Assembly: GCA_963713955.1 (NCBI GenBank)
Contig: OY970216.1
Location: forward strand, 209,934-273,933
Source of the DNA: an uncultured bacterium
Lineage (GTDB): Bacteria; Patescibacteriota; Minisyncoccia; UBA6257; GWB1-50-10
Direction of reading: 5' to 3'
Length of the DNA: 64,000 nucleotides
Within the stretch, counting starts at the first letter, position 1. Each line of letters starts with the position of its first letter. The notes beneath the pieces are model-generated. The model saw only the letters and a list, made by a program, of their open reading frames with translations. It did no database searches and had not been told where the DNA came from. Below are positions 11,418 to 26,872 of the stretch, one piece after another. The position numbers and the translations under genes were made by a program.

Positions 11418-12716
11418 ATGAAAACGATCATTCTTTCGGCTTTAATGCTCCTCATGAGCATTGCGCCGATAGATGTTTTGGGACAACAAAGTTCTGTGGC
11501 CCAAAAGGTGAACGGCTGTAACATCAGTCTCAAGTATAGTTGGTTCCCAGGCGGAGGCAGCATCAACGTGAGATCCGTGGCAGTTGTCAATGGAACCATC
11601 ATTGCTGGGACTACTGGCTGGAACGGGACAGCGTTCGTTGCGCCGGTGTATGTTTCTCAGGATACCGGCAAAACGTGGATTCCAATTGATTCCGCGAGAG
11701 GTCTCAATATTCCATGGAACCGGGTTTTCTCAGTATCTGCCGTGGATTCTCATCAGGTTATCATCGGAGCTGATTGTGGGATATACAAATCAATGGATTC
11801 CGGACTGCACTGGATTCAAGTTTATAATGATCCCAATGCTGGTTTTGGAGTATCCTACCTTGGCTACGATACTGTCATAGCCTGTGGTGGCCCCGGCGCC
11901 CTGAAGTCGAATGACAACGGTAATACTTGGCACTATGTAAGTAACGAGAACGTTGGCTGGGTAGTGAAAGCGCCAAATGGAAATCTGGTCAGTGGTATAG
12001 GAAGTGCTTTCGAGAGTGATGCTAAAGGTATCGTGATATCGTCTGATGGAGGGAATAATTGGGAGTCCTCCAACACGGGACTTACCAACAAAAACATATT
12101 TTCCCTGTCTGCCGATAGATCTGATGTCTATGCTGTCACTCATATCGGTGGCACATTTGTATCGCACGATGATGGCTCTTCATGGAGTCCGGTAACCAAT
12201 CTTCCTGATCAAGGGGAAGTTGTATCGACGATAAGTGGTTTGGGTGTGTTCGCTGGTTTCAGCCAGTCGGGTCAGCCAACCCTTTACTGGTCTCGTGACG
12301 GATCGAGTTGGTCTGCGGTCACCGTGTTCGACAATTGGCCGTTCTCGTTTGCTGAATTTGACTCAACCACCGTCGTTATCGGAACCGAAAGCGGCGTATG
12401 GATTGCGCACTTTGATAATCTCACTCCAGTTATCGAGCACCCTACAATTGCCACAAACTTCGCGTTATCCCAGAACTACCCGAACCCGTTCAACCCGACC
12501 ACTGCTATCAGATTCACGGTTTCAAAGAGAAGCTTTGTAACGCTCTCGGTCTACAACGTCCTTGGCCAGTTGGTGAAAACCCTGGTCAATGACGAGAAAA
12601 GTCCGGGAACTTACGAAGCAAGCTTTGACGGTACTTCACTCCCGTCGGGCACCTACATCTATCGTTTGCAAACTGATTTATACTCGCAGACGAAGAAAAT
12701 GGTTCTTTTAAAGTGA
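11418..12716 (+). CDS. BNR/Asp-box repeat beta-propeller protein (sialidase-like or Ycf48-like fold) with a type IX secretion system C-terminal sorting domain (Por_Secre_tail type).
   Basis: 432 aa. Signal peptide. Six S-x-D-x-G-x-(T/S)-W repeats (SQDTGKTW, SMDSGLHW, SNDNGNTW, SSDGGNNW, SHDDGSSW, SRDGSSW). C-terminus LSQNYPNPFNPTTAIRF...LSVYNVLGQLVKTLVN...SGTYIYRLQTD...KKMVLLK matches the T9SS CTD consensus. Extended -10 promoter ttgtggtataat and RBS aaaggag upstream. Confidence 0.75.
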   Translation: MKTIILSALMLLMSIAPIDVLGQQSSVAQKVNGCNISLKYSWFPGGGSINVRSVAVVNGTIIAGTTGWNGTAFVAPVYVSQDTGKTWIPIDSARGLNIPWNRVFSVSAVDSHQVIIGADCGIYKSMDSGLHWIQVYNDPNAGFGVSYLGYDTVIACGGPGALKSNDNGNTWHYVSNENVGWVVKAPNGNLVSGIGSAFESDAKGIVISSDGGNNWESSNTGLTNKNIFSLSADRSDVYAVTHIGGTFVSHDDGSSWSPVTNLPDQGEVVSTISGLGVFAGFSQSGQPTLYWSRDGSSWSAVTVFDNWPFSFAEFDSTTVVIGTESGVWIAHFDNLTPVIEHPTIATNFALSQNYPNPFNPTTAIRFTVSKRSFVTLSVYNVLGQLVKTLVNDEKSPGTYEASFDGTSLPSGTYIYRLQTDLYSQTKKMVLLK

Positions 12717-12727
12717 TCTTGTTCAAG

Positions 12728-12764
12728 GAGGTTCAGCTTAAAAACTGAACCTCTTTTCCGTTTT
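12728..12764 (+). terminator. Terminator hairpin gaggttcag-cttaaaaa-ctgaacctc plus ttttccgtttt. Copy 1 of a repeated terminator; the second copy is at about 19070.
   Basis: Perfect 9-bp stem immediately after the BNR gene stop, then a T-run. A near-identical element (cttgttcaa[a/g]gaggttcag...ctgaacc..ttttccgtttt) recurs at 19061-19108. Confidence 0.55.
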
Positions 12765-13119
12765 GCGCAGTCTAATTTCCAAAATCCCCACACTCGATGC
12801 TAGTTTTTGGAGAAGAGGGGCAAAAAGATGAGAAGTCATAGGGCTTTCTGGATTTGGTACCCCCTTCATTCTGGAGGTACCCGAGTGAAGCGGTGATTAA
12901 AGGGTTTTGAGAGGTCAGATTGAAGGGGTAGCTACTCCTCGAAATCGGGGTTATGCTGGTAAAAAGTTCGGATTTTGTCCAAGAGAGACAGCTCGCAAAG
13001 TTAGCCGATAAATCTTTGCTAAAATCCTCATCTTTAATAACGAAAGGTGGGTTAGAAGAAAAGTGCCCGGAACGATGAAGAGAAATGGGAGTTGAAATCA
13101 ACTCCCATTATAAACCTAC

Positions 13120-13590
13120 CTAAGAAACATTTTCAATCAAATAGCTACGATTGTTACAAGAGACCTCTTCTCCTTTCTTCCTGCCCATGCATGCACGGGC
13201 TAGCGGAGCAGATGGGGTAAGAGTGGTAACTACCGAGTTGTTCACTTGGATATTTTCCCCTCCGGCCCTCAAAACGATGAAGCAAATTCTGATACCGCCC
13301 GACGTTCCCTTATCTTTCAATTCAATCAATGAACCAACGCTTACAGTACCTTTGTTGTAGTGGATCGGCGTGGTAACAACATAGTTCAGGTCCTCCTGCG
13401 CCTTCTGCAATTGTTGTTGCAGTCCGGCAGCCAAGTGGCTGAGCTGGGATTTTGACGTATCAGAATGGCTCTCACTGCTGCTCGGCGCATCAATGGCGCG
13501 CTCTCTGGTGTCTTTTAAAGAGGCCTCCAATTCTTTCACGCGCCCTCTCAGCAGATCGGCCAGCGCTGAAACGATTTCCTCTTTATTCAT
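13120..13590 (-). CDS. GreA/GreB-family-like protein (C-terminal FKBP-like domain of transcript cleavage factors).
   Basis: 156 aa. C-terminal VSVGSLIELKDKGTSGGIRICFIVLRAGGENIQVNNSVVTTLTPSAPLARACMGRKKGEEVS resembles the GreA C-terminal domain pattern (GS.V.L.D..G....Y.IVG..EAD...G.IS..SPLA.AL.GK..GD.V). The N-terminus is not clearly a Gre coiled-coil, so assignment is moderate. A hairpin terminator (gggagttgatttcaactccc) follows at about 13085-13119. Confidence 0.45.
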   Translation of the reverse strand: MNKEEIVSALADLLRGRVKELEASLKDTRERAIDAPSSSESHSDTSKSQLSHLAAGLQQQLQKAQEDLNYVVTTPIHYNKGTVSVGSLIELKDKGTSGGIRICFIVLRAGGENIQVNNSVVTTLTPSAPLARACMGRKKGEEVSCNNRSYLIENVS

Positions 13591-13770
13591 GACAAATAGC
13601 TCCTTTCAAGCTTGAATAGTTACAAAATTATGTATACATTTTCCCGTAAACTCTGAACCCATAATGAGCAGGTAAAAAATATCAAATGATTAGGTTCTAA
13701 TAATTAGTAAATCACAAATATGAAGAAAGGTCAACTGCATTCTTCCTCGGAAGGTAATACAATCAAAACT

Positions 13771-14328
13771 ATGGATATTTATTTGGTGACAAGGAATAAA
13801 GGTAAATTGCTGGCAGCGAACAGCGCCTTCGATAACACGGGTATCTTTCTTAAGCCAGTAGAAAGAGACTATCCGGAAATCCAGGCTGATACCAGTGCAG
13901 AAATAGCAAAGTACACAGCCCTTGAGGCAGCTAAAAATTTGGGGGCTCCAGCCATTAGAGAGGATCACAGTTTGGTACTTAACGCACTAGACATCCCAGG
14001 GCCATACATGAACTATTTTGAAAAACATGTTCCTCCGGAGAAAATACTTAAAATATTAGAGCGTTTCAACGATCGCTCTGGTTATTTCGAAGTCGCAACT
14101 GCTTACGCGGAGCCGGATGGCGAAGTGCAGCAATTTTCATTCAGAGTTCCCTTCAGAATCAGCAAAGAGATGCGCGGGAAATTACAAACCGGCTGGAACA
14201 AAATCTTGGTTCTTGAGGGGGAAACGCGTACACTGGCTGAATATCCAGAAACGGAAAGAACGCATATCTGGAATAAAAACTATTTGGCGATAGTAAAATA
14301 TCTCAAGGAAAACTCTAAAATTTCCTGA
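13771..14328 (+). CDS. Ham1/RdgB-like non-canonical purine NTP pyrophosphatase (ITPase family), tentative. The ORF track begins at 13720; the ATG at 13771 gives MDIYLVTRNKGKL.
   Basis: IYLVTRNKGKLLAANSAF (compare TGNxGKxxE), REDHSLVLNALDIPGPYMNYF (compare DDSGLxVDALxGxPGxYSARY). Family-level similarity only. Confidence 0.4.
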   Translation: MDIYLVTRNKGKLLAANSAFDNTGIFLKPVERDYPEIQADTSAEIAKYTALEAAKNLGAPAIREDHSLVLNALDIPGPYMNYFEKHVPPEKILKILERFNDRSGYFEVATAYAEPDGEVQQFSFRVPFRISKEMRGKLQTGWNKILVLEGETRTLAEYPETERTHIWNKNYLAIVKYLKENSKIS

Positions 14329-15007
14329 ATACGCCACGGAAGACAGAACGCCATCCCGTATTTACCAAGCTCCTATAAGTTGCCACCTTACTCTCTGGTC
14401 TGATTTTTAATTCTCTAAGAAGACCGAGTATCCTCGATTTCGGCAAGAGTACCATATGCAAACCTTCCTTCGTAAGGAAAGTGAATTTGTCCACATTTAG
14501 TTTCTTAAAAGGAACCTTACTATTTTTTGCATAAAACATGTTTATGCAAACGTATCCTCCCCTTTTCAAAACCCTTGCCGTCTCTCCTACAGCCGCTCTC
14601 AACTCTGATAGAGAATCGACATTATGATAAATGCCATTGGCAATAATAACATTGAAGACCGAATCTTTAAAAGGGAGACGTTTCATATCGGCCATAACAA
14701 TTCTTTTATTAGTTTTATTCCTTAAATACTTTTTAGATTTTTCACGTGCACGCCGAACCATGGACTCGTGCAAATCGCAAGCCCACACGTCAAATCCCAT
14801 TTTGAGTAGTAACACGGTATTACGGCCAGCGCCACAACCTACATCTAAAACTTTCACTGACGCTGGATTTTCAAAGTTAGAAAAAAACTTTTCCCAGTAA
14901 GGAGGGGGTGGTAATAAAGAGAATTCCTCTACAATCTTAGGGTCATTCCAAAATAATTCTTCTGGGGATTTATACATTTTTAATGGCTTTGGTAACACGA
15001 TATCCAC
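14315..15007 (-). CDS. Class I SAM-dependent methyltransferase.
   Basis: 230 aa. Motif I VLDVGCGAGRNTVLLLKMGFDVWACDL, then the post-I acidic residue and motif II/III spacing. Confidence 0.7.
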   Translation of the reverse strand: MDIVLPKPLKMYKSPEELFWNDPKIVEEFSLLPPPPYWEKFFSNFENPASVKVLDVGCGAGRNTVLLLKMGFDVWACDLHESMVRRAREKSKKYLRNKTNKRIVMADMKRLPFKDSVFNVIIANGIYHNVDSLSELRAAVGETARVLKRGGYVCINMFYAKNSKVPFKKLNVDKFTFLTKEGLHMVLLPKSRILGLLRELKIRPESKVATYRSLVNTGWRSVFRGVFRKF

Positions 15008-16085
15008 CGTTCCAAATATGCGTGGAAAATGTTTTCATTCCCCTATCCCTAAAGGCCCTAATGCAAGTTCTAGGATTTTTAGTTATAGCGAATATTCCGG
15101 GTCCTACAGAAGATATTGCCAGAACATCGGCTATATTGTCTTTCTTCAAATACCTCAGGTCATCGCATAATTTGGTCAAACCGGGGTAGGTGAAAGAACA
15201 GTTTTCTATACTTCCCATTTCAAAGCGATATTTGTAAATAACATCACCTATTTTCGAGAGATCGTTACTGACCACCGATGGTAAGACCTCATGCAAGACT
15301 AGATATGCAATATCCTTTCCCCATTTTTTACCGGTAGCCACGAAGCGATGAAGATTTCTCTTTTCCATTGCCATAAGTTCCGCCGCATCAAGATCGGGGA
15401 CATCTTTCGGAATACCGATAACGACTTCGTAGCTCGCCGGTATTTTCATCTCAGCGATGGGAACACTTTCTCCGGCAAGCACTATCATTCCCGCTTTTTC
15501 TATACCACCGGCCGCCGAACCGCCGATGCACTGAACCGGAACGAGATACTCTTCATTGCCATCTATTTCCTCTCCGTGGTTTTGAGCAAGATACGTAATA
15601 AGTACCTGCCGAGGTATGGGATTCCCGTAAGCTTCATTGAACGCACAAGCCACAGCCGCGATAAGACTGCTGCTTGAACCGAGGCCGCAGTGTTTTATCT
15701 CGTTTTCGTTATCAACTTTGATATCGAATCCCTCTTTGAAACCTATAGCTCGTTTCATAAGGAAAGCCGAATGCATAATTAGTGATCGTCTCTTGGAAAA
15801 ATTATCGATAGCTATAGCGGAATCTTTACGTAGCGTTAATGTCACCTTTTTGAACAAGGGAACGACAAATAATATCTCTCCGGGGGTATACTTGAAATTC
15901 TTCTTGACGTCTATCTTACTGGGGTCTATAGCCATGGCATCAAGTCTGCTCGGATATAAAAGAACCAGCTTTCTGTACAAGAGACAGCAGCGTTTTACCT
16001 TTACTTTTATTGGATTAAAAAGGCTCCCCACTTTGAACAGTGAAGAGCCTTTAACTCTCGATAGATTTTTTTTAGTTTTGGGCAT
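14970..16085 (-). CDS. GHMP kinase family protein (beta-RFAP synthase / pantoate kinase-like). The ORF track begins with TTG at 16115; the first ATG is at 16085.
   Basis: GHMP signature HCGLGSSSSLIAAVACAF (P-x-G-S-G-L-G-SS-A-A type phosphate loop). N-terminal YPSRLDAMAIDPSKI resembles the TPSRLHFxLID start of the beta-RFAP-synthase subgroup. Overlaps the downstream methyltransferase by 38 nt. Confidence 0.55.
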   Translation of the reverse strand: MPKTKKNLSRVKGSSLFKVGSLFNPIKVKVKRCCLLYRKLVLLYPSRLDAMAIDPSKIDVKKNFKYTPGEILFVVPLFKKVTLTLRKDSAIAIDNFSKRRSLIMHSAFLMKRAIGFKEGFDIKVDNENEIKHCGLGSSSSLIAAVACAFNEAYGNPIPRQVLITYLAQNHGEEIDGNEEYLVPVQCIGGSAAGGIEKAGMIVLAGESVPIAEMKIPASYEVVIGIPKDVPDLDAAELMAMEKRNLHRFVATGKKWGKDIAYLVLHEVLPSVVSNDLSKIGDVIYKYRFEMGSIENCSFTYPGLTKLCDDLRYLKKDNIADVLAISSVGPGIFAITKNPRTCIRAFRDRGMKTFSTHIWNGGYRVTKAIKNV

Positions 16086-16644
16086 AATGCAGCTTTTGAA
16101 AGAGTATCTTGTCAAGGCTCTCCCGCAAACTTTCTAGATCACCGTTGTTCCATATGTTGAACTGGGCTATTTCACGGATAGTATTTAAGCCCATTCTGAC
16201 ATCCAGATCAAGAAGTTCGTTAAACTCGTCGTCAGAAAGATTCTTCTTCTCACGCGAGTTATAGCGTTCATGTAAAATCTTAAATGGAGCATCTAAAAAG
16301 ACAACTTGATTAGAATACCCATTGACCGATTTTATACGTTCGCTTATGAAAACTATACCACCTTTTGATCGATTGCCAACAATGACTATGTCTTTATGCA
16401 GTCTAGTTTCCTCAGCTCGCATTTTTGCCAATTTCAACTCGCAAACCAGAAGATCGTCCGTAAAGCGCTGGCCGTAATGCCTTTCCCCCTCAGTAATCCA
16501 ATCACCGAAAGAAAGATTAGTATCTTGTTTTTGGTGTATCTGTCTGAGGGTTGGCCCCGAGTCCACTGTCAAAAATCCATGTGGGGCAATTAAATTGGCG
16601 GAAAGGGTTTTGCCAGATCCATGAGGTCCTACAAGGAAGATCAT
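16072..16644 (-). CDS. P-loop NTPase, small nucleotide/nucleoside kinase-like. Start placed at MIFLVGPHGSGKT.
   Basis: Walker A IFLVGPHGSGKTLSANL. Size about 190 aa with a hydrophobic Walker B-like IVIVGNRSKGG. Resembles adenylate/dephospho-CoA-kinase-like folds. Specificity unknown. Confidence 0.5.
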   Translation of the reverse strand: MIFLVGPHGSGKTLSANLIAPHGFLTVDSGPTLRQIHQKQDTNLSFGDWITEGERHYGQRFTDDLLVCELKLAKMRAEETRLHKDIVIVGNRSKGGIVFISERIKSVNGYSNQVVFLDAPFKILHERYNSREKKNLSDDEFNELLDLDVRMGLNTIREIAQFNIWNNGDLESLRESLDKILFQKLHYAQN

Positions 16645-16821
16645 TGTCTTATTTCTCCTTTCGATTGACAAGTAAAACTTTTCCAAGAATACCACATAAA
16701 AACAATAATGTCAAAACATTTGGACTGACGATTTCAACATTGACATGCTAACAGAATTATTTAATAATAAAATTAGGCTCTTTTACAACCATCTAATCAG
16801 TCAGAAAGAAGGTGAAATACC

Positions 16822-17967
16822 ATGAGGGATACTAAAAGATCGTATCTCAGCATACCCTGCCACTGGAGCGAATCGATAATCAGTACAGTTATGAACGTCA
16901 AGCCGGTTAGAAACATTGACGTATCAGATGTATACGGAGTTATGGCAGATGGCGGGCCAGTTGGACATGGAAGGTCAAGAAACTCAGTTGTAGCTATAAG
17001 CAAAGAGCGCGCCGTAGAGTTTAGATCTTTCCTGAAACATAATGGCCTCAGATTTATTTACTTACTGAATGCTCCTTTCAGATTTGAAGGCAACGCAGAA
17101 CAGAAACAATCATTGGACAGCTATCTGGGGTGGATCATTGAAGATTTAGATCCCGATGCTGTAATGATCGCATCTCATGAACTAATGCGTTACGTAAGAG
17201 CTATCAACGAGCAAACTCCAATTCACATATCTACGATTGCCGGCGTCAGAAACAAAAAGGACCTCGTGAAATACTTAGATATAGTTCCCAGCCGCGTGGT
17301 TCTACACCATGATACCGGGAAAGAATTGGAAACGTTGCTGGAATTAGTGCAGTTCTGCCTTAGTGAAGGCATTGAAATTGAACTAATGGCAACAGAAAGT
17401 TGTTTGTTTCATTGTCCAGATAGGCAAAATCATTACGAATCGTTGGCGCATGGTCGTGAGGATAAGCCGTTTCATTCCGTATGTAACGCGAAGAAACTCA
17501 GTCATCCTCGCGAATTTCTTATGTCAGGCGGAACAATACGCCCAGAGGACATCGAGATCTACGAGGACATCGGTATCCATCATTTCAAAATCACTGGCCG
17601 TTCTAAACCAGCAGATTGGCTTCCGGATGTTGTACGAGCCTACAAGATAAGAGAATACAGAGGCAATCTAATCCGCCTGCTTGGCATAGATCCGCTCATC
17701 CACGCCGAGGATTGGATTTACATTGAAAATTCAGCCCTTTCTGGTTTTACAAAAGAACTGCTTGGCGCAAAATCACATCGCGAGAAGATAGCCTGTGCCG
17801 AAAGGTGGATTACCAAACTTTATGCATCTGGACAATTCAAGCTATTGGACGGTTCAGAATACGTGAATAAAGGTAACTATCTCGATTTACTCTCTTGCGG
17901 CAGAATGTCTGACTCGATTATTAACTGCTCTCAGCAAGAAAGTGATCAGTCAATACACCCCGGATGA
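16822..17967 (+). CDS. Hypothetical protein, possibly U32-peptidase-like TIM-barrel protein (low confidence). An alternative start is at 16891.
   Basis: 381 aa. Layout (IYLLNAPFRFEGNAEQKQSLDSYLGWIIEDLDPDAVMIASHELMRYV...IHISTIAGVRN...VVLHHDTGKELE...CLFHCPDRQ) is compatible with the U32 family architecture, but no diagnostic motif was confirmed. Confidence 0.3.
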   Translation: MRDTKRSYLSIPCHWSESIISTVMNVKPVRNIDVSDVYGVMADGGPVGHGRSRNSVVAISKERAVEFRSFLKHNGLRFIYLLNAPFRFEGNAEQKQSLDSYLGWIIEDLDPDAVMIASHELMRYVRAINEQTPIHISTIAGVRNKKDLVKYLDIVPSRVVLHHDTGKELETLLELVQFCLSEGIEIELMATESCLFHCPDRQNHYESLAHGREDKPFHSVCNAKKLSHPREFLMSGGTIRPEDIEIYEDIGIHHFKITGRSKPADWLPDVVRAYKIREYRGNLIRLLGIDPLIHAEDWIYIENSALSGFTKELLGAKSHREKIACAERWITKLYASGQFKLLDGSEYVNKGNYLDLLSCGRMSDSIINCSQQESDQSIHPG

Positions 17968-18704: not shown

Positions 18705-18726
18705 ATTTTTATTTATTGTCTGTCTA

Positions 18727-20284: not shown

Positions 20285-20422
20285 AATGGGAGAAGGCTGA
20301 TACCTGCATCAGCCTTTTGAACTTCTTATTTGCCCGCGTGGTTTCACCACTGTTCCGGGCTTTTCTGCATTTAATGGAGCCACTATTGACAATTTTATTT
20401 CCACGCTTTAGTATACTAAAGT

Positions 20423-21264: not shown

Positions 21265-21273
21265 GAGCCCTCA

Positions 21274-22047
21274 ATGATTACTCCCCGCCAGAAACAAGTT
21301 CTCTTCATTGCCTGCACGCACGGCAACGAACCGATAGGGAAATTGGCAGTTGAGGGACTTTTGAAAAACAAAAATCTGTCGCGAAAATTCGATTGTGTCA
21401 TCGGGAACCCCAGGGCGTACGCTAGAAATATTCGCTTTACAGACTCTGATCTCAACCGATCTGCGCCTGGCAGGCAATACTCGAAAAAATATGAGGTGAG
21501 ACGCGCCTTTCAACTGATCCAGCTTTTCAAGAGGTACCGATACGTTATCGATCTCCATCAAACCAGGGCGAATAATCGGATAGTAGTCATTATTCCAAAG
21601 CTTACCCGCCGTTCTCTGGCGCTTGCTCTGGCCTTTGACGTAAGGGATGTTCTCATCTGGCCATCATCGTCCTCATTAAAATCACGACTCAGGCCGCTCA
21701 CCGAGTACAAAGACTATGGTATAGAGATAGAATCCGGGATCAAAGCAAATCCACGAAAAACCTTAATGAAGCTTACAGTGATCGTCTATGATTTCCTCAT
21801 GAAAGATTCGGGAGCGATATCGACAAACCTTGAAGATTTGAAGGAAAAAATTTGCAAGAGAAAGTTTTATTTAGTTTATGATCGCATTGGTATAGAGGAC
21901 ATTCAAGGTGCCACAGTCGAGGATTTCAAAGAGGTGGATACGGGAGAGAAAAAGTACATTGCTTTGCTCTTTGGGAGACGTCAGGGATTGATCGGATATA
22001 AGATGCGCCGCGTGAGTGAAAAGTGGATCAGTAATTCCATTTCTTAA
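21274..22047 (+). CDS. Succinylglutamate desuccinylase / aspartoacylase (AstE-AspA) family zinc hydrolase.
   Basis: 257 aa. N-terminal LFIACTHGNEPIGK (GxHGNExxG zinc-ligand motif) and the DLHQT second metal-ligand context. Confidence 0.65.
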   Translation: MITPRQKQVLFIACTHGNEPIGKLAVEGLLKNKNLSRKFDCVIGNPRAYARNIRFTDSDLNRSAPGRQYSKKYEVRRAFQLIQLFKRYRYVIDLHQTRANNRIVVIIPKLTRRSLALALAFDVRDVLIWPSSSSLKSRLRPLTEYKDYGIEIESGIKANPRKTLMKLTVIVYDFLMKDSGAISTNLEDLKEKICKRKFYLVYDRIGIEDIQGATVEDFKEVDTGEKKYIALLFGRRQGLIGYKMRRVSEKWISNSIS

Positions 22048-22049
22048 TC

Positions 22050-22805
22050 ATGGAATCCGGCAAGACAATCACCATCCTCTCGACTTTTACCGAGGATATA
22101 CTTGTGAACGAAGAAGGGGAAGTGATCAGGAAACAAAGAGGAGGACCGGCATTTTATCTCGAGCGGACCTTCAGGCGTGAGAAAGTAACGTCAGTTTTAA
22201 AGACTGGTCCCGAGATGGAAGTCAAAATCCTTGTGGCAAAAACAGGAGAGCTTGGCATGGTTTCACGGGGGTCGTCACCACAGAAAGTAAGATTCTCGGA
22301 CCTCAAAACACCATTTCTCCTTATTTCCACAGTGTTAAACGAATTTGATCTGACCGAGCTTCCGCAGTTCAGAGGATTTGTATTTCTCGATGTTCAAGGC
22401 TATGTAAGAAACGGCAGTCGTTTTGGAAAGAAGAAGCTATGGCGTCCCACCAATAGGGTGTTTAGCAGTATTTTCTGCCTCAAGGGCACTGGAGAAGAAT
22501 TGAAGAGTTTACCGGATCACTATCTTGAGACTCAAAGGGGAAAAATTCTCATAACCACGAATGGTAAAAGTGGTTGTGAAATTTTCACCTTCGGTAAACG
22601 TGATGTTGTAAAACCGAAAAGAATTGTCGTGACAGGAAACACGGTAGGGGCCGGCGATACATTTTTCGCTAATTTTATTTCCCATTTTACGAGGACAATG
22701 GATGCCTCCGTTAGTGCCAGGTACGCCGTGAAGGAAACCTCAGTTTTCCTCTCCGCAATAAGTTCGTGTAATCTTAAATGCAATCACCCTAATGAAACAA
22801 GATAG
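22050..22805 (+). CDS. PfkB-family carbohydrate/nucleoside kinase (ribokinase-like).
   Basis: 251 aa. N-terminal GGPAFYLE (GG motif) and C-terminal VVTGNTVGAGDTFFANFIS (DTxGAGDxF anion-hole motif). Confidence 0.7.
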   Translation: MESGKTITILSTFTEDILVNEEGEVIRKQRGGPAFYLERTFRREKVTSVLKTGPEMEVKILVAKTGELGMVSRGSSPQKVRFSDLKTPFLLISTVLNEFDLTELPQFRGFVFLDVQGYVRNGSRFGKKKLWRPTNRVFSSIFCLKGTGEELKSLPDHYLETQRGKILITTNGKSGCEIFTFGKRDVVKPKRIVVTGNTVGAGDTFFANFISHFTRTMDASVSARYAVKETSVFLSAISSCNLKCNHPNETR

Positions 22806-23504
22806 CAAGCTTATCATTTTTGATCTCGATGGGACTATCTATAAATTGGACGGCGGGTCTTATAAAAAATCCTCTTTACGGAGGGGCGTGTTGCGGAACG
22901 CAGTCAAATTCATCGGAGAAAGACTGTCTAGAAGTGAGGTAGAGGCTCAGAATGTACTCCGGACCATTAAAAAGAAATATGGTGAACAGATAAGTATCGG
23001 ATTGGAGAGAGAGTTTGGAATCGATCGCCATGATTACTTCAATACTGTTTGGGACATTCCGGCCCGTGATCTTGTTACAAAGAAAGACAGCGGGCGAAAA
23101 ATCCTACTAGCCCTGAGAAGGGAGTATGAAATGGCGCTTGTGTCTGATGCCCCACGTGTTTGGATAAACAACGTTCTAAAAGAGTTGGGAATTAAAACCT
23201 CTTTAGCGGTATGGTATTCTCTGGCGAGGGGAACCGACGCAAGGGTTTTGGTAATACTTTTGCGGATATCACACGAACTCTAAAAACCTCTCCACAAGAT
23301 TGTATTGTTATCGGTGATCAAGAGAATACAGACATTGTTCCTGCAAAGAGACTCGGCATGTACACTATCTTCGTCAGCCCAAAAAAACGTTCTCTCATAG
23401 CCGATGACACTATTTCATCCATTCGCGAACTCCCGGCGGCACTTAGAGCTGAGGCTCTTTTTAACTTCAACGAAAATCTACCAAAGGAAATTTTATTGCA
23501 GTGA
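22792..23504 (+). pseudogene. HAD-superfamily hydrolase split into two overlapping reading frames (22792-23283 and 23211-23504). Either a genuine frameshift pseudogene or an assembly indel.
   Basis: Frame A: MKQDSKLIIFDLDGTIY (HAD motif I DxDGT) ... ALVSDAP ... LKELGIKTS. Frame B continues ...FSGEGNRRKGFGNTFADI...CIVIGDQENTDIVPAKRLGMYTIFV (motif III Lys and IV GDxxxD). A single-base frame change near 23196-23215 would fuse them. Confidence 0.5.
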
Positions 23505-23699
23505 CTTTTGAAAAAACCCGCATGGTTTCACCACTGTTCCGGTTTTTCTGCGTTTACGCGGCTTGTTTCTCCCGCCAGCAGGCTCTTCGGTTTTCAAAAT
23601 TCCACCCTCGCGCAAAAGCTATGCCTGAAAGTGGGATGCTACAGTTAACTGTAGCAGCTCGGATTTCTCAGACTATGCCGCGTTTGCATTTGAACGAGC

Positions 23700-23963
23700 T
23701 TGTTGTATAATCTAGAAATGGCCAAGAAACAGCAGTTCAAAATTCTTATCGAGCAAGGTGATGACGGAATGTTTGTTGGGAGCGTTCCTTCCTTGCCTGG
23801 TTGTCATACGCAAGCTAAGACCCTCCCCGAGCTGAAGAAACGGATTCGGGAAGCGATTGAACTCTGTCTTGAAGTTGCCAAGGAAGATGCCAGCTACCGG
23901 GCGAGAATAAAACAGTTTGCTTACGAACCGACCTTCGTTGGCCTTGAGATGGTCAGCGTATGA
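23700..23963 (+). CDS. hicB: HicB-family antitoxin, cassette 2.
   Basis: 87 aa. FKILIEQGDDGMFVGSVPSLPGCHTQAKTLPELKKRIREAIELCLE is textbook HicB/UPF0150. Promoter ttgcat-N17-tataat lies 8 nt before the ATG (near-leaderless). Confidence 0.8.
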   Translation: MLYNLEMAKKQQFKILIEQGDDGMFVGSVPSLPGCHTQAKTLPELKKRIREAIELCLEVAKEDASYRARIKQFAYEPTFVGLEMVSV

Positions 23964-24187
23964 GCAGGCATCTACCTGTCTTGAAAGCAAAGGATGTTAT
24001 AAAGATTTTGAGAAAGCTGGGCTTTTATGAGGTGCGAACGAAAGGTTCGCACGTCTTTTTCAAGCATCCTGATGGCAGAGTGACGTTAGTCCCCGTGCAT
24101 AGGAGAGAAAATATAGGCAAAGTGCTCTTACATCAAATCATGAGAGAGGTTAAGATTACGCCTGAAGAATTCTCTAAGTTGTTATAA
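23960..24187 (+). CDS. hicA: HicA-family toxin, cassette 2.
   Basis: 75 aa. KAKDVIKILRKLGFYEVRTKGSHVFFKHPDGRVTLVPVHRRENIGKVLLHQIMREVKIT is the canonical HicA/YcfA signature. 4-nt overlap with hicB. Confidence 0.8.
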   Translation: MSRHLPVLKAKDVIKILRKLGFYEVRTKGSHVFFKHPDGRVTLVPVHRRENIGKVLLHQIMREVKITPEEFSKLL

Positions 24188-24522
24188 ATCCCTGCGGCTA
24201 CGGTTGGCTCTCTCTTTTCTCTTCAAGAGCTTCTTTGTTGAAAGAAATTTGGCAATCGGTTTCGCGCAGTTGGGACAAAAATCATAACTATCAAAACCAA
24301 TGCCGACGGAGATTGCTTCCCTCAGCTTCCTTAAACTCTTCCGACAGATATCACACTTGCGGATGATCATATCTTTTCTCTCGTGCAAGCAATTATACCA
24401 CGCCAAGATTTTTTTTCGAGGCCCTGTGGCTATGGTTTTCGAACAGCGCCGTTGGAGGATTCTTGGATTGCTCGTCGCCTCGGTGAAAACTCAATCTTCG
24501 TTTGCAAAGAGGCTAACAATGC

Positions 24523-25326
24523 TTAGCCTCTCTTTTTGTTTTTCTTCTGACAAATAAAAACCATTTGCTCGCTACCGGGTTTATACGGTTTCAGGCTGAA
24601 GTCGCCATAAACTTTTACCGGATACAAACCGACTTTTTCCAGTAAGGACTGTATTTCTATAAAATCTGCTTGATACCCAGATGCTGGATAATGCCAACGC
24701 CGAGTAACACTGTTAGCGTTTAAAATTTCCATAAAATAATGTATTTGAAAGATACGTCTCGCGGGAACCTGTATTGCGGAAAAAAGATTCCAAGTTTCAC
24801 TTTTTATTACCCGTGAGAAATGATATCTCACGGCATATTCCCTAGACAGATCATTAGGCGAGAACAGATCGAGAACAAATAGACCATTTTCATCGAGGTG
24901 CTCCGCTATGTTCTTGAGAGCTTTGTATTGTCTTTGTTGTATCTCTTCTGGTGAATAATATGCGTCGCCCTTCTGGGCAAGATATGCCAGACTATCAAAA
25001 GGCAGGAAAATGAGCTTGAATCGCTTGTTTCTAAACAGGGAGGAGGAAAACTCGACTAGATCGTCTTTGAAAATTTTAACTTTTCTGCCAGCTTTTAATG
25101 TTTTAACTTTTTTCCTGGCAATATCCAACATCGCAGCATTAGTATCGAAGCCCCAAATCTCCTTACCCGATTTCGCTATGGGAGCGAGAATACGACCAGC
25201 TCCGCAAGCACATTCCAATATCGGTCCATTAACCTTCTGAGCCAGGCGATAATAGAAATCTACATCATCTTTTTTATTCTCGTACTCCAGATCGTAAAAT
25301 TTTGCGTAAAGCTGCTCTCTGTTCAT
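24523..25326 (-). CDS. Class I SAM-dependent methyltransferase. Start at MNREQLYAKFY; the ORF track gives 25380.
   Basis: Motif I ILECACGAGRILAPIAKSGKEIWGFD, acidic DLVEF, motif-II-like LIFLPFDSLAY. Confidence 0.7.
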   Translation of the reverse strand: MNREQLYAKFYDLEYENKKDDVDFYYRLAQKVNGPILECACGAGRILAPIAKSGKEIWGFDTNAAMLDIARKKVKTLKAGRKVKIFKDDLVEFSSSLFRNKRFKLIFLPFDSLAYLAQKGDAYYSPEEIQQRQYKALKNIAEHLDENGLFVLDLFSPNDLSREYAVRYHFSRVIKSETWNLFSAIQVPARRIFQIHYFMEILNANSVTRRWHYPASGYQADFIEIQSLLEKVGLYPVKVYGDFSLKPYKPGSEQMVFICQKKNKKRG

Positions 25327-25454
25327 AACAGTTTTATTATACCAATAAAAGCCGAACGAACAATGAAGATATTCCACCACTCCTCATACTAAGAAGTGAT
25401 GGAGTATAAAAAGGCAGAAAAGTCCGGAGGTGCTAAGCACACGGACTTTTCGTA

Positions 25455-26777
25455 TCACTTCAAAAGCAGCATCTTCTTCGTCAGTGACAACCCATCAGAG
25501 GTTGTCAGACAATAGAAGTATGTGCCCGACGGAAAGTGACTTCCGTCGAACTGTACGACACGAATTCCTGGAGAAACAGTACCGTCCACCAATGTCGCTA
25601 CTTCTTGCCCGAGAACATTGTAAACCTTGAGGGTCACAAATGTTCTCAAAGCAACCGTATAGCTGATCGTCGTGGTCGGGTTGAACGGGTTCGGGTAGTT
25701 CTGGTTCAGGGTGAAGCCGTAGGGCTGGTTTGTTGTCGCATGGACTGCGGTTATAACACCATCGACACGCCACAGACCATTGGTAGTGCCGACGAGAAGC
25801 GAATGATTCTGAATCGCCAGACTCATCACTCCGATGGGAATGCCATTGATGCTATTTGGTACTACTTGCGTCCATCGTGCTCCGTCGTATTTGAATACAC
25901 CACCAGTTGCCGATCCCTGCCCACTGAAGCCGACGAAAATGGTATTCTTCTGGCCCACGAGAATAGTGGTCGCCTCTTTCTGAGACGAATCTATTCCTGT
26001 GATTTTCGTCCAGGTACCGCCGTTATCAATCGACTGATACACACCATCACCGGTACCGGTGAATGGGTTTCCGGTTCCGGCGTATAGGACACCGTTACTG
26101 TCAGCAGCTATGGCCTCAACATCTTGGAAGTTGATACCATTATCACTAGGCTGCCACGTTTTCCCTTCATTGGTGGAACAGAAAACGCTCGCACTATTCG
26201 CAATATTAACTGTCCCAGCAAAGATGAAACCTCTCGTATACACCAGAGTATTCACATACAGCGTGCTATCGTAGAAGATAGTTTTCCAATTTTCGCCGCC
26301 ATCAAATGATTGTAGGATGCCACCAGAAATGCCAGCCATAATTGCATCTCCTCTGATCAGGAAACATGTGATTGACGCACTATGCTTCCACGTTGTATAG
26401 GGTGACGGTGGAGAAGGTTGGGTCCAGCTTGAACCATTGTCGGTGGAACGGAATAACCCGTTCACGGTCCCGACAAGTATAGCGTTGGTCTTGGGATCGC
26501 GAACGACCGCATAGCTATAACGAGACCACCAATCGAGATTGATAGGCAATTGGGTCCATACTGCACCGTCATCCGTCGTCTGCATTATGCCCATATCAGC
26601 GGTAGCGGCAAGTATGTCATTGCTATCGCCGTCAACCCATAGTGAATTGACATTGATGCTCTGACCTATAAGACTGTCCGGCCAGATGTACGAGTAGGAA
26701 ACAGACGTACTGGATTGGCTTCTCGCGGACGAGATGCCAATCAGTACGGCTGCGAGAAACAATCCAATATTTTTCAT
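25455..26777 (-). CDS. Second BNR/Asp-box repeat beta-propeller protein with a T9SS C-terminal sorting domain. Start at MKNIGLFLAAVLIG.
   Basis: Signal peptide. Asp-box repeats (TTDDGAVWTQ, STDNGSSWTQ, SFDGGENWKT, STNEGKTWQP, SIDNGGTWTK). C-terminus LNQNYPNPFNPTTTISYTVALRTFVTLKVYNVLGQEVATLVDG...SGTYFYCLTTSDGLSLTKKMLLLK. 32 nt of the CTD coding sequence are identical (inverted) to gene 11418. Confidence 0.75.
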   Translation of the reverse strand: MKNIGLFLAAVLIGISSARSQSSTSVSYSYIWPDSLIGQSINVNSLWVDGDSNDILAATADMGIMQTTDDGAVWTQLPINLDWWSRYSYAVVRDPKTNAILVGTVNGLFRSTDNGSSWTQPSPPSPYTTWKHSASITCFLIRGDAIMAGISGGILQSFDGGENWKTIFYDSTLYVNTLVYTRGFIFAGTVNIANSASVFCSTNEGKTWQPSDNGINFQDVEAIAADSNGVLYAGTGNPFTGTGDGVYQSIDNGGTWTKITGIDSSQKEATTILVGQKNTIFVGFSGQGSATGGVFKYDGARWTQVVPNSINGIPIGVMSLAIQNHSLLVGTTNGLWRVDGVITAVHATTNQPYGFTLNQNYPNPFNPTTTISYTVALRTFVTLKVYNVLGQEVATLVDGTVSPGIRVVQFDGSHFPSGTYFYCLTTSDGLSLTKKMLLLK

Positions 26778-26872
26778 TTTCAACTCCTTTCTAAACTCTA
26801 TTATAACATAAATGCTCAATCTTTGCAACAAAAAGGCGATACGGTAAAAGAATATATGCTATAATACAAGAA

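What the first reader, a model, noticed from the sequence alone, without database searches (positions are those of the whole stretch)
11418..26831. AT-richer ~12.7-kb accessory island bracketed by inverted T9SS-sorting-domain genes sharing a 32-nt identical core
Two BNR/Asp-box propeller genes (11418-12716 on +, 25455-26777 on -) carry type IX secretion C-terminal domains. Their 3' ends point inward toward a block (about 13.1-25.4 kb) whose GC is visibly lower than the flanks. Sampled 60-nt lines at 16.7-18.2 kb run about 28-40% GC, against about 52-65% in ligA, the giant adhesin and pilB. The two CTD coding regions share a perfect 32-nt stretch (cagaactacccgaacccgttcaacccgaccac at 12471-12502; reverse complement at 25672-25703) within about 250 nt of roughly 75% identity. 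A third, decayed CTD fragment (18727-18909) lies inside the island. Each of the two + strand CTD ends is followed by the same terminator-repeat (12728-12764, 19070-19108). This geometry suggests an inverted-repeat-bounded, horizontally acquired or recombination-prone region that was assembled stepwise. No integrase or transposase is present.
Basis: seen in the sequence. Interest (0 to 1): 0.7.

Follow-up and report, generated by a model that had tools for sequence, protein, structure and literature searches.

The report
Variable accessory gene block in a CPR genome
A real, AT-richer 12.7-kb block of accessory genes fills a naturally variable slot between two old paralogous surface-protein genes beside the pilus operon of a tiny Patescibacteria (CPR) genome; it is an ordinary recombination mosaic rather than a mobile element, and its oddest feature is that a cell type thought to lack type IX secretion keeps type IX sorting domains.

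Summary
Two convergent BNR-propeller genes with T9SS type-A sorting domains bracket a 12.7-kb block. The block has 42.8% GC, against 52.2% to the right. The two genes share a perfect 32-nt inverted core, and a truncated third CTD lies inside the block.

The interpretation needs revision.
- **Organism.** The relatives found through PilM are Patescibacteria (CPR).
- **Conserved frame.** The order adhesin, BNR(+), [cargo], (BNR(-)), giant adhesin, pilM recurs in at least 9 related MAG or metagenome loci. Cargo ranges from about 0.1 to 5.6 kb and differs between them. None of them carries this cargo.
- **The 32-nt core.** It encodes the invariant QNYPNPFNPTT motif of the sorting domain and is not a mobile-element end. 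The two propellers are only 23% identical, so they are ancient paralogues.
- **The cargo.** It is CPR-native. It contains two modules found elsewhere in CPR genomes, three methyltransferases and two hicBA pairs. It also carries scars of surface-gene 3' ends and terminators, which argue for stepwise recombination.
- **Chimera.** Unlikely. A second assembly (99.98% identical) spans the left junction, and k=31 assemblies break exactly in the core.

This is an ordinary flexible islet. The side finding is that T9SS sorting domains are conserved in CPR genomes.

The parts
9145..11295 (+). Left conserved flank: an adhesin-like surface protein with Flg_new_2 repeats. It contains the GYGWLSF coding motif at 10751-10769.
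   Evidence: Pfam. Homologues lie immediately upstream of the BNR gene in L001, L005, L011, L012, L025 and L036. Motif.
11418..12716 (+). BNR1: a secreted 7-bladed beta-propeller with a T9SS type-A C-terminal sorting domain at residues 354-429.
   Evidence: PF18962 scores 42.6 bits and TIGR04183 43.2 bits. The AF2 model has pLDDT 83.5, and its top PDB fold match is PorZ 5m11, E=1.9e-12. BNR1-type orthologues are syntenic in L001, L004a, L005, L011, L012, L025 and L036.
12471..12502 (+). The 32-nt identical core, copy 1. It encodes QNYPNPFNPTT, motif B of the sorting domain.
   Evidence: The k=31 Logan contig L013 ends inside it, at 12473.
12725..12764 (+). Terminator B, copy 1, downstream of BNR1.
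13120..18704 (.). Block A, a CPR-conserved module.
- GreA-C-like 156 aa (13120-13590, -)
- Ham1/ITPase-like (13720-14328, +)
- UbiE-like SAM methyltransferase (14315-15007, -)
- GHMP-kinase-like, related to beta-RFAP synthase (14970-16115, -)
- P-loop kinase (16072-16695, -)
- U32-like (16822-17967, +)
- Asp/Glu racemase (18012-18704, -)
   Evidence: Pfam and NCBIfam. The same set occurs in L014 at 47-63% aa identity, and a subset in L015, L016 and L017. Methyltransferase-GHMP fusions exist, e.g. P0010, P0030, P0067. GC is 41.7%.
18770..18912 (+). Truncated remnant (47 codons) of a third T9SS-CTD gene.
   Evidence: It is 56-60% identical in nucleotides to either intact CTD, so it is old.
18917..18972 (+). 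Terminator A copy. The family is GAAAAGYCCG-loop-CGGRCTTTTCTGCRTTTA. Other copies lie at 20330-20373(+), 23510-23569(+) and 25410-25452(-, downstream of BNR2).
   Evidence: In the searches run, copies turned up only inside the island.
19050..19108 (+). Scar of a BNR1-like 3' end (..PPVK*) plus terminator B, copy 2. Together with 12706-12764 it forms a roughly 58-nt direct repeat around block A and the CTD remnant.
   Evidence: 51 of 57 positions identical.
19320..19741 (+). hicB-1 (19320-19535) and hicA-1 (19532-19723), followed by a 19-36-nt fragment of the adhesin GYGWLSF motif (19723-19741).
   Evidence: Pfam HicA_toxin and UPF0150 on the gene calls. Translations. Motif. L011 has a roughly 85-90% nt-identical hicA fused to the same motif.
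19787..23504 (+). SAM methyltransferase (19787-20284) followed by block C.
- YerC/TrpR-like regulator (20423-20725)
- SLOG cluster-4 / TIGR00725-like (20659-21264)
- AstE/aspartoacylase-like (21274-22047)
- PfkB-like kinase (22050-22805)
- HAD phosphatase split by a frameshift (22792-23283 and 23211-23504)
   Evidence: TrpR, SLOG and AstE co-occur in another CPR lineage, L022/L023. The best non-self AstE-like hit is 54% identical, and one hit is named Candidatus Uhrbacteria.
23598..24212 (+). Second hicBA cassette: hicB-2 (23718-23963) and hicA-2 (23960-24187). It has the same conserved upstream motif (23598-23616) and downstream GYGWLSF fragment (24194-24212) as cassette 1. The coding sequence has diverged strongly.
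24523..25380 (-). Third SAM-dependent methyltransferase.
   Evidence: Pfam.
25455..26831 (-). BNR2, a paralogous propeller with a T9SS type-A sorting domain. The likely start is the ATG at 26777. Core copy 2 lies at 25672-25703.
   Evidence: The propeller is 23% identical to BNR1 and 38% to L004b. BNR2-type orthologues on the - strand lie upstream of the giant adhesin in L004 and L037.
26873..29812 (+). Right conserved flank: the giant adhesin (Flg_new_2, fn3-like), followed by pilM (30697-31989) and the type IV pilus operon.

Best explanation
The window comes from a Patescibacteria (CPR) chromosome. In this lineage, secreted BNR-propeller genes carrying a T9SS type-A sorting domain sit between two adhesin genes, just upstream of the type IV pilus operon. 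The space between the BNR gene(s) and the giant adhesin is a flexible slot whose cargo differs in every relative examined.

In this genome the slot holds a 12.7-kb mosaic with the following parts:
- **Block A.** A module conserved across CPR genomes: P-loop kinase, GHMP-like protein, methyltransferase, Ham1, U32, a GreA-like protein and a racemase.
- **Block C.** A YerC/TrpR-like regulator, a SLOG protein, an AstE-like protein, a PfkB-like kinase and a frameshifted HAD phosphatase.
- **Extras.** Two further methyltransferases and two hicBA toxin-antitoxin cassettes.
- **Scars.** A truncated CTD with BNR2's terminator, a 4-codon BNR1-like 3' end with BNR1's terminator, and two adhesin-motif fragments.

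Inference. The sub-blocks were added or exchanged stepwise. The mechanism was homologous or short-homology recombination, anchored in the conserved 3' ends and terminators of the paralogous surface-protein genes and in the hicBA cassette flanks. No dedicated recombinase was involved. The hicBA pairs may help retain the block.

The 32-nt inverted 'core' is simply the coding sequence of the invariant QNYPNPFNPTT motif in two ancient paralogues. The lower GC reflects weak GC3 bias typical of accessory genes here, and of this particular module in other CPR genomes. It may also reflect exchange among CPR relatives.

Shown: the anatomy, the synteny, the CPR affinity of the cargo, and contiguity. Inferred: the recombination mechanism, the order of events, and any role of hicBA.
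For: - **Relatives and frame.** PilM relatives are Patescibacteria, Minisyncoccia or 'Saccharibacteria' MAGs. The frame is conserved while cargo varies from about 0.1 to 5.6 kb, and no island protein hits those slots.
- **Ancient paralogues.** L004 has an orthologous convergent BNR pair around 2.7 kb of other cargo.
- **The core is a motif.** Orthologues carry the same motif with 3-6 synonymous differences. CTDs are 47-73% identical while propellers are 21-56%.
- **CPR-native cargo.**. Block A is syntenic in L014, next to a CTD gene and between ClpP and a giant adhesin. Subsets occur in L015 to L017. The block C association recurs in L022/L023.
- **Repeats and scars.**
- **Composition.**
- **Contiguity.** The Logan contig L013 equals window 12473-25701 at 100%. 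The ENA 133-kb contig L018 equals window 1418-22716 at 99.98%. Exact matches of island proteins are recorded on contigs up to 804,691 nt.
Against: - The direction of change is unresolved, meaning gain here against loss in relatives. L014 shows block A in the same neighbourhood, so part of the block may be ancestral.
- No donor or near-identical copy of any sub-block was found. The best non-self hits are only 50-62% identical.
- The chance that 10 codons match by independent draws from this genome's codon usage is about 1e-4. A short gene-conversion tract in the core therefore cannot be excluded.
- The right junction across the core at 25672-25703 was not seen directly in a second long assembly.
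- The recombination mechanism is inferred from scars alone.
Confidence: 0.7

Rival explanations
1. The block, or at least block A, is ancestral to this chromosomal neighbourhood. The PilM relatives lost or relocated it. On this reading the 'island' is a relic and not an insertion.
For: - L014 carries racemase, GHMP-like protein, methyltransferase, kinase, Ham1, U32 and the GreA-like protein. They lie directly beside a CTD gene, between ClpP (84% identical to the window's ClpP) and a giant adhesin.
- The convergent adjacency of the GreA-like 3' end and the CTD gene 3' end is shared with the window.
- L015 also links the module to a Clp protease paralogue.
- The module is AT-richer than its flanks in L014 and L015 too.
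Against: - Nine loci with PilM 51-75% identical lack every island gene in the slot.
- A roughly 58-nt direct repeat (89% identical) brackets block A together with a decayed CTD. That looks like an integration scar.
- The unit is inverted relative to L014.
- In L015 to L017 the module sits among other housekeeping genes.
Confidence: 0.3
2. The 13.2-kb segment is invertible. Recombination between the inverted 32-nt CTD cores flips the cargo and swaps the distal CTD halves and terminators of the two BNR genes, leaving both genes intact.
For: - The inverted repeat is a perfect 32 nt sitting inside 99 nt at 79% identity.
- Both genes would stay in frame after an exchange.
- k=31 assemblies from two runs break exactly there.
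- Identity at all synonymous sites of the core is improbable by chance, about 1e-4.
- The block is inverted relative to L014.
Against: - No recombinase gene is nearby.
- 32 nt is marginal for RecA-type exchange.
- Two long assemblies agree on the orientation at the left junction.
- BNR1's CTD groups with BNR1-type orthologues at 70-71%, against 63% to BNR2's CTD.
- The inversion relative to L014 includes the CTD gene itself, so its end points are not the cores.
Confidence: 0.08
3. A horizontally acquired mobile island, bounded by inverted repeats and coming from outside the CPR, for example from an FCB-group donor.
For: Lower GC and GC3 than the pilus and core genes. The inverted-repeat geometry. 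The toxin-antitoxin cassettes. BNR-CTD homologues are abundant in Ignavibacteria and Bacteroidota.
Against: - No transposase, integrase or tRNA.
- The inverted repeat is a conserved coding motif present in all orthologues.
- The bracketing genes are native and syntenic in the lineage.
- The best homologues of the cargo are CPR proteins.
- GC3 is not different from the left-flank accessory genes.
Confidence: 0.05
4. An assembly chimera that joins a T9SS-bearing (FCB) organism to a CPR organism at the repeated CTD sequence.
For: T9SS sorting domains are unexpected in a CPR genome. A 32-nt exact repeat is a de Bruijn branch point, and Logan contigs break there.
Against: - BNR-CTD genes occupy the same position in at least 9 independent CPR MAG or metagenome contigs.
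- The island genes are CPR-type.
- The ENA contig of 133 kb, a different strain with 1 SNP and one 3-nt indel, spans adhesin, BNR1 and the island. hicA-2 is also on record on a contig in that size class (50-200 kb).
- An 804-kb contig also carries the island genes.
Confidence: 0.03

Closest known systems
Flexible genomic islets or islands at conserved hotspots. This is the pangenome concept of variable cargo between conserved flanks, often near cell-surface gene clusters (my own knowledge of the literature).
   Same: The flanks are conserved and the cargo differs in each relative. The cargo is AT-richer, carries toxin-antitoxin cassettes and lies next to surface-protein and pilus genes. Exchange needs only homologous recombination.
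   Different: The anchors appear to be the conserved 3' sorting-domain and terminator sequences of paralogous genes, plus a short adhesin motif. Much of the cargo consists of lineage-typical (CPR) metabolic modules, not phage, defence or glycosylation genes.
Classical integrase-mobilised genomic islands and IS-bounded composite transposons.
   Same: A compositional step, inverted-repeat geometry, and absence from relatives at the same locus.
   Different: There is no integrase, transposase, tRNA or att site. The inverted repeat is a coding motif shared by all orthologues, and the cargo is not foreign to the phylum.
Invertible surface-protein loci that work by recombination between conserved gene ends, such as Campylobacter fetus sap inversion and shufflons (my own knowledge).
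   Same: Two oppositely oriented surface-protein paralogues share a conserved terminal coding segment and flank a multi-kb segment.
   Different: The shared perfect identity is only 32 nt and lies at the 3' ends. There is no recombinase and only one orientation was seen.
T9SS type-A CTD cargo proteins of Bacteroidota and the FCB group, for example PorZ (PDB 5m11).
   Same: The architecture is signal peptide, beta-propeller, then a C-terminal beta-sandwich with the NYPNPFNP and KKM.LLK motifs. TIGR04183 scores above cut-off and the top fold hit is PorZ.
   Different: The host is a Patescibacteria genome of about 0.8 Mb. From established knowledge this group has no outer membrane and no T9SS. 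No T9SS component lies in the 64-kb window.
HicAB type II toxin-antitoxin modules.
   Same: HicB-like and HicA pairs with overlapping stop and start codons (ATGA).
   Different: The two cassettes have strongly diverged coding parts but conserved flanking motifs. One of those flanks is a fragment of an adhesin gene.

Membership tests
Classical horizontally acquired genomic island | Base composition differs from the host core genes | tested here: met
   GC is 42.8% against 52.2%, and GC3 0.445 against 0.65, p=4.5e-6. It is not distinct from the left-flank accessory genes (p=0.09).
Classical horizontally acquired genomic island | Absent from the orthologous locus of related genomes | tested here: met
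   Nine related loci lack all island genes in the slot.
Classical horizontally acquired genomic island | Integrase, transposase or other mobility genes | tested here: not met
   No such Pfam family in any island ORF of 90 aa or more.
Classical horizontally acquired genomic island | Insertion at a tRNA/tmRNA gene | tested here: not met
   No tRNA or tmRNA in the 64 kb.
Classical horizontally acquired genomic island | att-like direct repeats at the island ends | tested here: inconclusive
   Direct repeats of 28-58 nt exist. They lie at the 3' ends and terminators of genes and at internal sub-block boundaries, not at the two outer ends of the block.
Classical horizontally acquired genomic island | Cargo of foreign phylogenetic affinity | tested here: not met
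   The best non-self hits of the GHMP-like and AstE-like proteins are Patescibacteria proteins at 50-62% identity.
Flexible islet at a recombination hotspot | Conserved flanking genes in the same order across relatives | tested here: met
   The order adhesin, BNR, [cargo], giant adhesin, pilMNO-pilB is kept in L001, L004, L005, L011, L012, L025, L036 and L037.
Flexible islet at a recombination hotspot | Different cargo in different relatives | tested here: met
   L004 has CYTH and a deaminase. L011 has two radical SAM genes and a His phosphatase. L005 has a radical SAM gene and an S41 peptidase. L012 has a glycosyl hydrolase. L001 has about 0.1 kb.
IR-bounded transposable element | Element-specific terminal inverted repeats | tested here: not met
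   The repeat encodes the QNYPNPFNPTT motif, which is present in all BNR-CTD orthologues in other genomes.
IR-bounded transposable element | Transposase | tested here: not met
Invertible DNA segment (shufflon- or sap-like) | Inverted repeats flank the segment | tested here: met
   A perfect 32 nt sitting within 99 nt at 79% identity.
Invertible DNA segment (shufflon- or sap-like) | Both orientations present in the population | not testable with these tools
   No read data are available. The window and the ENA contig agree at the left junction. k=31 contigs are uninformative.
Invertible DNA segment (shufflon- or sap-like) | A dedicated recombinase nearby | tested here: not met
T9SS type-A cargo protein | C-terminal TIGR04183 / PF18962 domain above the curated cut-off | tested here: met
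   BNR1 scores 43.2 bits and BNR2 38.6 bits. Six orthologues score 37-48 bits. The cut-off is 23.
T9SS type-A cargo protein | Beta-sandwich CTD fold at the extreme C-terminus | tested here: met
   The AF2 model shows strands 361-430 with block-mean pLDDT about 84-92 (last two residues 72). The best PDB match is PorZ 5m11.
T9SS type-A cargo protein | N-terminal Sec signal peptide | tested here: inconclusive
   Hydrophobic N-termini are visible by inspection (MKTIILSALMLLMSIAPIDVLG, MKNIGLFLAAVLIGISSARS), and the model has a helix at residues 2-15. No signal-peptide predictor was available.
T9SS type-A cargo protein | T9SS machinery (PorK/L/M/N, Sov, PorU/V) and an outer membrane in the same organism | not testable with these tools
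   Only 64 kb is available and nothing in it resembles these components. The absence of an outer membrane in CPR cells is established knowledge, not a test made here.
HicAB type II toxin-antitoxin | Adjacent HicB-like antitoxin and HicA toxin genes | tested here: met
   PF07927 HicA_toxin together with PF15919 or PF21748 on both pairs. Both pairs have ATGA stop/start overlaps.

The most novel reading that the evidence does not exclude
A clade of Patescibacteria has small genomes of about 0.8 Mb. From established knowledge these cells are monoderm and have no T9SS. Yet the clade keeps canonical T9SS type-A sorting domains on secreted propeller proteins encoded beside its type IV pilus and adhesin locus.

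The sorting domain is conserved more strongly (47-73% identity) than the propeller it is attached to (21-56%). That implies the domain has a selected function that does not depend on T9SS, such as a new surface-anchoring or sorting route. It could even be aimed at a T9SS-bearing host.

The conserved 3' coding sequence may also serve as the homology anchor through which accessory cassettes are swapped at this locus.
Probability: 0.3. Interest if true: 0.7.

Novelty: new member of a known kind. Interest (0 to 1): 0.38.

Why it matters
As a genomic island the finding is ordinary. It documents a flexible slot in a CPR genome that is filled by recombination rather than by a mobile element, and it shows that the '32-nt inverted repeat' is a conserved protein motif.

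It matters in three smaller ways.

1. **Assembly caution.** Conserved sorting-domain motifs create exact repeats of 31 nt or more. These break k=31 assemblies, and the breaks can look like island borders.
2. **How CPR genomes vary.** These tiny genomes, which are poor in mobile elements, seem to vary their accessory content next to surface and pilus genes. Gene 3' ends, terminators and toxin-antitoxin cassette flanks appear to act as the recombination anchors.
3. **T9SS domains outside their expected range.** T9SS type-A sorting domains are conserved and syntenic in Patescibacteria. Four full-text searches found no paper that discusses this. If these domains work without a T9SS, they point to an undescribed surface-sorting route in CPR bacteria.

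Tried and rejected
- **Exact-protein look-ups** of BNR1 and BNR2 found nothing on record with my start choices. The source was reached instead through homologues.
- **Rfam.** No hit at gathering thresholds over the whole window. Only a chance hit at E<=1 in 18.7-24.6 kb. The conserved, covarying palindrome upstream of each hicBA pair is therefore more likely a HicB operator than a known RNA.
- **tRNA scan.** None found.
- **Concerted evolution or gene conversion between the two CTDs.** Rejected for this genome, because BNR1's CTD is closer to its orthologues than to BNR2's. L004's two CTDs (66%) hint at it there.
- **CTD-core-mediated inversion as the explanation for the orientation difference from L014.** Rejected, because the inverted unit includes the CTD gene itself.
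- **Defence-island reading.** PADLOC gave only generic domain hits: methyltransferase domains to mad2, and radical SAM domains to pVip in the relatives' cargo.
- **Functional assignment of cargo by NCBIfam.** Nearly all hits fall below the family cut-offs; only the racemase (amino acid racemase subfamily) and the YerC/YecD-type regulator pass. Only superfamily-level functions can otherwise be given.
- **Terminator A and B repeats in relatives' loci.** Absent except in copies of the same genome.
- **Literature.** Four searches for T9SS together with Patescibacteria, CPR or Parcubacteria returned nothing relevant.
- **PDB sequence search.** Only a weak GH74 propeller hit.
- **Right junction in a second long assembly.** Not obtained. 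Only k=31 Logan contigs, which start in the core, were returned.

Full report
**1. What is in the sequence**

ORF listing and Pfam/NCBIfam scans confirm two convergent genes, at 11418-12716(+) and 25455-26777/26831(-). Both encode BNR/Sortilin-like beta-propellers ending in a T9SS type-A sorting domain. PF18962 scores 42.6 and 31.2 bits. TIGR04183 scores 43.2 and 38.6 bits against a cut-off of 23.

An AlphaFold model of BNR1 (pLDDT 83.5) shows a propeller followed by a C-terminal beta-sandwich. Its best PDB fold match is PorZ, a T9SS component with the same propeller-plus-CTD build.

The 32-mer CAGAACTACCCGAACCCGTTCAACCCGACCAC occurs exactly twice, inverted, at the stated coordinates, with none expected by chance. 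The surrounding CTD-coding DNA is 79% identical over 99 nt and 69% over the whole 245 nt.

The genes between the two BNR genes are:

| Coordinates | Product |
|---|---|
| 13120-13590 (-) | GreA-C-like protein |
| 13720-14328 (+) | Ham1/ITPase-like |
| 14315-15007 (-) | UbiE-like methyltransferase |
| 14970-16115 (-) | GHMP-kinase-like protein, weakly related to beta-RFAP synthase |
| 16072-16695 (-) | P-loop kinase |
| 16822-17967 (+) | U32-like protein |
| 18012-18704 (-) | Asp/Glu racemase |
| 19787-20284 (+) | second methyltransferase |
| 20423-20725 (+) | YerC/TrpR-like regulator |
| 20659-21264 (+) | SLOG cluster-4 protein |
| 21274-22047 (+) | AstE/aspartoacylase-like protein |
| 22050-22805 (+) | PfkB-like kinase |
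| 22792-23283 and 23211-23504 (+) | HAD phosphatase split by a frameshift |
| 24523-25380 (-) | third methyltransferase |

No integrase, transposase or tRNA is present.

**2. Composition**

The block (12717-25454) has 42.8% GC. The right side has 52.2%, the left side 47.3% and the two BNR genes 48%.

At third codon positions the contrast with the pilus and housekeeping genes on the right is strong: 0.445 against 0.65, p=4.5e-6. The island is not distinguishable from the poorly conserved genes on the left, which have GC3 of 0.43-0.56 (p=0.09). Conserved ClpP on the left has 0.66.

Low GC therefore marks accessory genes across the first 27 kb. It is not one sharply bounded insert.

The same gene module is also AT-richer than its neighbours in two other CPR genomes, L014 and L015. 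The cargo in the equivalent slot is 6-11 GC points below the pilus operon in L004, L005 and L011.

**3. Whose genome, and is it a chimera?**

Scanning species-representative genomes with PilM returned only Patescibacteria, Minisyncoccia or 'Saccharibacteria'-labelled MAGs, at 51-75% identity. A metagenome scan added more loci.

tblastn with the window's proteins shows a conserved frame: a 9145-like adhesin, a BNR-CTD gene(+), a variable stretch, sometimes a BNR-CTD gene(-), a 26873-like giant adhesin, then pilM-N-O-B-T-C and pilins. All BNR orthologues tested carry TIGR04183 above cut-off. The T9SS-domain genes are therefore native to this CPR lineage and are not a sign of a foreign contig end.

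Independent assemblies agree with the window.
- **Logan contig, run ERR10755942.** It equals window 12473-25701 at 100% identity. Its neighbour equals 25675-29975. Both break inside the 32-nt core, as expected for a k=31 graph.
- **ENA contig, 133 kb.** It is a slightly different strain, with one SNP and one 3-nt indel, both in BNR1. It equals window 1418-22716 at 99.98% and so spans the left junction. hicA-2 is also on record on one contig of the 50-200 kb size class, most likely this one.
- **Longest contig.** Exact matches of island proteins are recorded on contigs up to 804,691 nt.

A chimera is very unlikely.

**4. The inverted 'core' is a protein motif**

The 32 nt encode QNYPNPFNPTT, the invariant motif of the sorting domain. 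Orthologues in L001, L011 and L012 have the same peptide with 3-6 synonymous changes.

The two propellers are only 23% identical. BNR1 groups with L001, L012, L004a and L005, while BNR2 groups with L004b and L037. L004 has the same convergent pair around 2.7 kb of unrelated cargo, a CYTH protein and a deaminase. The pair is therefore ancient.

BNR1's CTD is closer to its orthologues' CTDs (70-71%) than to BNR2's (63%). This genome shows no sign of homogenisation between the two CTDs.

Given the window's codon usage, ten codons matching by independent choice has a probability of about 1e-4. Shared ancestry plus preferred codons probably explains this. A short conversion tract cannot be excluded.

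Across genomes the CTD (47-73%) is much better conserved than the propeller (21-56%).

**5. The slot is variable and the cargo is CPR-native**

Cargo between the BNR gene and the giant adhesin differs in each relative:

| Locus | Cargo in the slot |
|---|---|
| L001 | about 0.1 kb, no cargo genes |
| L012 | a glycosyl hydrolase |
| L005 | a radical SAM gene and an S41 peptidase |
| L011 | two radical SAM genes and a His phosphatase |
| L004 | a CYTH protein and a deaminase |
| L025 | about 2 kb, not annotated |

No island protein hits any of these loci, apart from a hicA in L011.

The island genes themselves are typical CPR genes.
- **GHMP-like protein.** Its best non-self hits, at 58-62% identity, are annotated Jorgensenbacteria, Minisyncoccia or Patescibacteria. 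Some are fused to the neighbouring methyltransferase.
- **Block A in L014.** The order there is racemase, GHMP-like protein, methyltransferase, methyltransferase, kinase, Ham1, U32 and the GreA-like protein. It lies directly beside a CTD-bearing gene, between tyrS-ClpP and a giant adhesin. The whole unit, CTD gene included, is inverted relative to the window.
- **Block A elsewhere.** L015, L016 and L017 carry kinase, GHMP-like protein, methyltransferase, Ham1, PrnB and the GreA-like protein among housekeeping genes.
- **Block C.** The AstE-like protein has only about 29 relatives, best at 54%, one of them from Candidatus Uhrbacteria. In L022/L023 it is again next to a SLOG cluster-4 gene and a TrpR-like gene.

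**6. Scars and repeats**

- **CTD remnant.** A 47-codon CTD remnant (18770-18912) is followed by terminator A (18917-18951). That terminator otherwise follows BNR2 (25417-25451).
- **Direct repeat around block A.** About 100 nt further on lies a 4-codon remnant (..PPVK*) with terminator B (19050-19108). Across 57 aligned positions, 51 match BNR1's own 3' end and terminator (12706-12764). A roughly 58-nt direct repeat therefore brackets block A and the remnant.
- **Terminator A copies.** Related copies follow the methyltransferase at 20330-20373 and the HAD gene at 23510-23569. The searches run found none outside the island.
- **hicBA flanks.** The two cassettes are strongly diverged in their coding parts but share a conserved upstream motif. 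Each also has a palindrome that differs between the copies, a plausible operator. Both share a downstream fragment, GCGGCTACGGYTGGYTCTC, which is the GYGWLSF coding motif of the left adhesin (10751-10769).
- **L011.** A hicA about 85-90% identical in nucleotides abuts the same motif. There the motif continues as a real adhesin C-terminus.

Inference. These features point to repeated recombination among paralogous surface-protein gene ends, which is a stepwise mosaic and not one insertion.

**7. Explanation and rivals**

Best supported (about 0.7). This is a flexible islet in a conserved slot of a CPR chromosome. It was built stepwise from CPR-native modules by recombination anchored in conserved 3' gene ends, terminators and cassette flanks. 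It was not built by a mobile element.

The direction of change is open. Synteny with L014 argues that block A's association with a CTD gene and the ClpP-adhesin neighbourhood is old (rival, about 0.3). The direct repeat and the nine empty relatives argue for integration here.

The other rivals are:
- an actively invertible segment that flips through the cores (about 0.08);
- a mobile island from outside the CPR (about 0.05);
- an assembly chimera (about 0.03).

**8. Comparison with what is known, and novelty**

The region behaves like the flexible genomic islets described for many bacteria. It fails the defining tests for a classical integrase-borne island and for an IR-bounded transposon. It is a new member of a known kind.

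Canonical T9SS type-A sorting domains are conserved, syntenic and under tighter constraint than their passenger domains in Patescibacteria. By established knowledge this group lacks an outer membrane and a T9SS.

NCBI's pipeline already labels such CPR proteins 'T9SS type A sorting domain-containing protein'. Four full-text searches found no paper discussing this. Whether the source genome truly lacks T9SS genes could not be tested on 64 kb.

**9. Verdict**

The finding is an ordinary accessory mosaic, with an interesting side lead. Interest is about 0.38.

Noticed in passing
window 11418-12716 and 25455-26831; L001:2040-3419, L004:712-2013 and 4685-6004, L005:2043-3347, L011:865-2433, L012:3973-5355: Canonical T9SS type-A sorting domains (TIGR04183 at 37-48 bits) sit on propeller proteins that are syntenic beside the type IV pilus operon in Patescibacteria. 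This group is thought to have no outer membrane and no T9SS. The CTD is 47-73% conserved against 21-56% for the propeller. No paper linking T9SS and CPR was found.
   Followed up: partly
window 42145-42229, 45345-45443, 47445-47514: Three copies of a 65-90-nt REP-like repeat that folds back on itself. They are 87-91% identical and lie in both orientations. Two flank ligA (43220-45352). None occurs in the island.
   Followed up: no
window 19210-19270 and 23598-23660: The conserved motif AATTCCRCCYYCGCGCAAA..AGCTATGC lies upstream of both hicBA pairs. It is followed by a palindrome that differs between the copies (GGCGCTAT..ATAGCGCC against GCTACAGTTAACTGTAGC). This is probably a HicB operator that co-varies with its repressor. 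There is no Rfam match.
   Followed up: partly
window 19723-19741, 24194-24212, 10751-10769; L011:121-140; L012:3270-3283: Both hicA genes are followed by a fragment of the adhesin 'GYGWLSF' coding motif. In relative L011 a similar hicA abuts the same motif at the start of a real adhesin C-terminus. hicBA cassettes may therefore insert or recombine at this motif.
   Followed up: partly
window 22792-23504: The HAD phosphatase gene is split into two overlapping frames (22792-23283 and 23211-23504). The sequence is identical in the independent Logan contig, so it is likely a true frameshift pseudogene.
   Followed up: partly
window 13120-18704; L014:9288-15761; L015:4129-8733; L016:9448-14035: A CPR-wide module of unknown function. 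It comprises a P-loop kinase, a GHMP-like protein related to beta-RFAP synthase, a SAM methyltransferase (sometimes fused to the GHMP-like protein), Ham1, either U32 or PrnB, and a 154-156-aa GreA-C-like protein. It is AT-richer than its flanks in three lineages.
   Followed up: partly
window 11456 and 11622-11624 (against L018): The only differences between the window and a second-strain ENA contig over 21.3 kb are one SNP and one in-frame 3-nt indel. Both lie in the N-terminal part of BNR1.
   Followed up: no
window about 29975: Logan k=31 contigs from two runs both end at window position 29975, just after the giant adhesin. This suggests another exact repeat of 31 nt or more, or a variant site there.
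   Followed up: no
window 37996-39068: Three tandem paralogous pilin-like genes share a 185-nt 5' segment at 74-75% identity. Relatives have two or three such genes at the same position.
   Followed up: no
L012:12928-14126: This relative shows a partial pilB fragment followed by a second copy of the pilN/pilO-like genes. It is either a local duplication in the pilus operon or an assembly artefact.
   Followed up: no
L022:12818-14983: A tyrosine recombinase (Phage_integrase) gene interrupted by an intein with a LAGLIDADG domain lies next to the TrpR, SLOG and AstE genes in another CPR contig.
   Followed up: no
window about 24190-24372 (- strand): A small unannotated ORF encodes a CxxC...CxxC zinc-ribbon-like peptide (MIIRKCDICRK...CPNCAK...). 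It lies between hicA-2 and the third methyltransferase.
   Followed up: no
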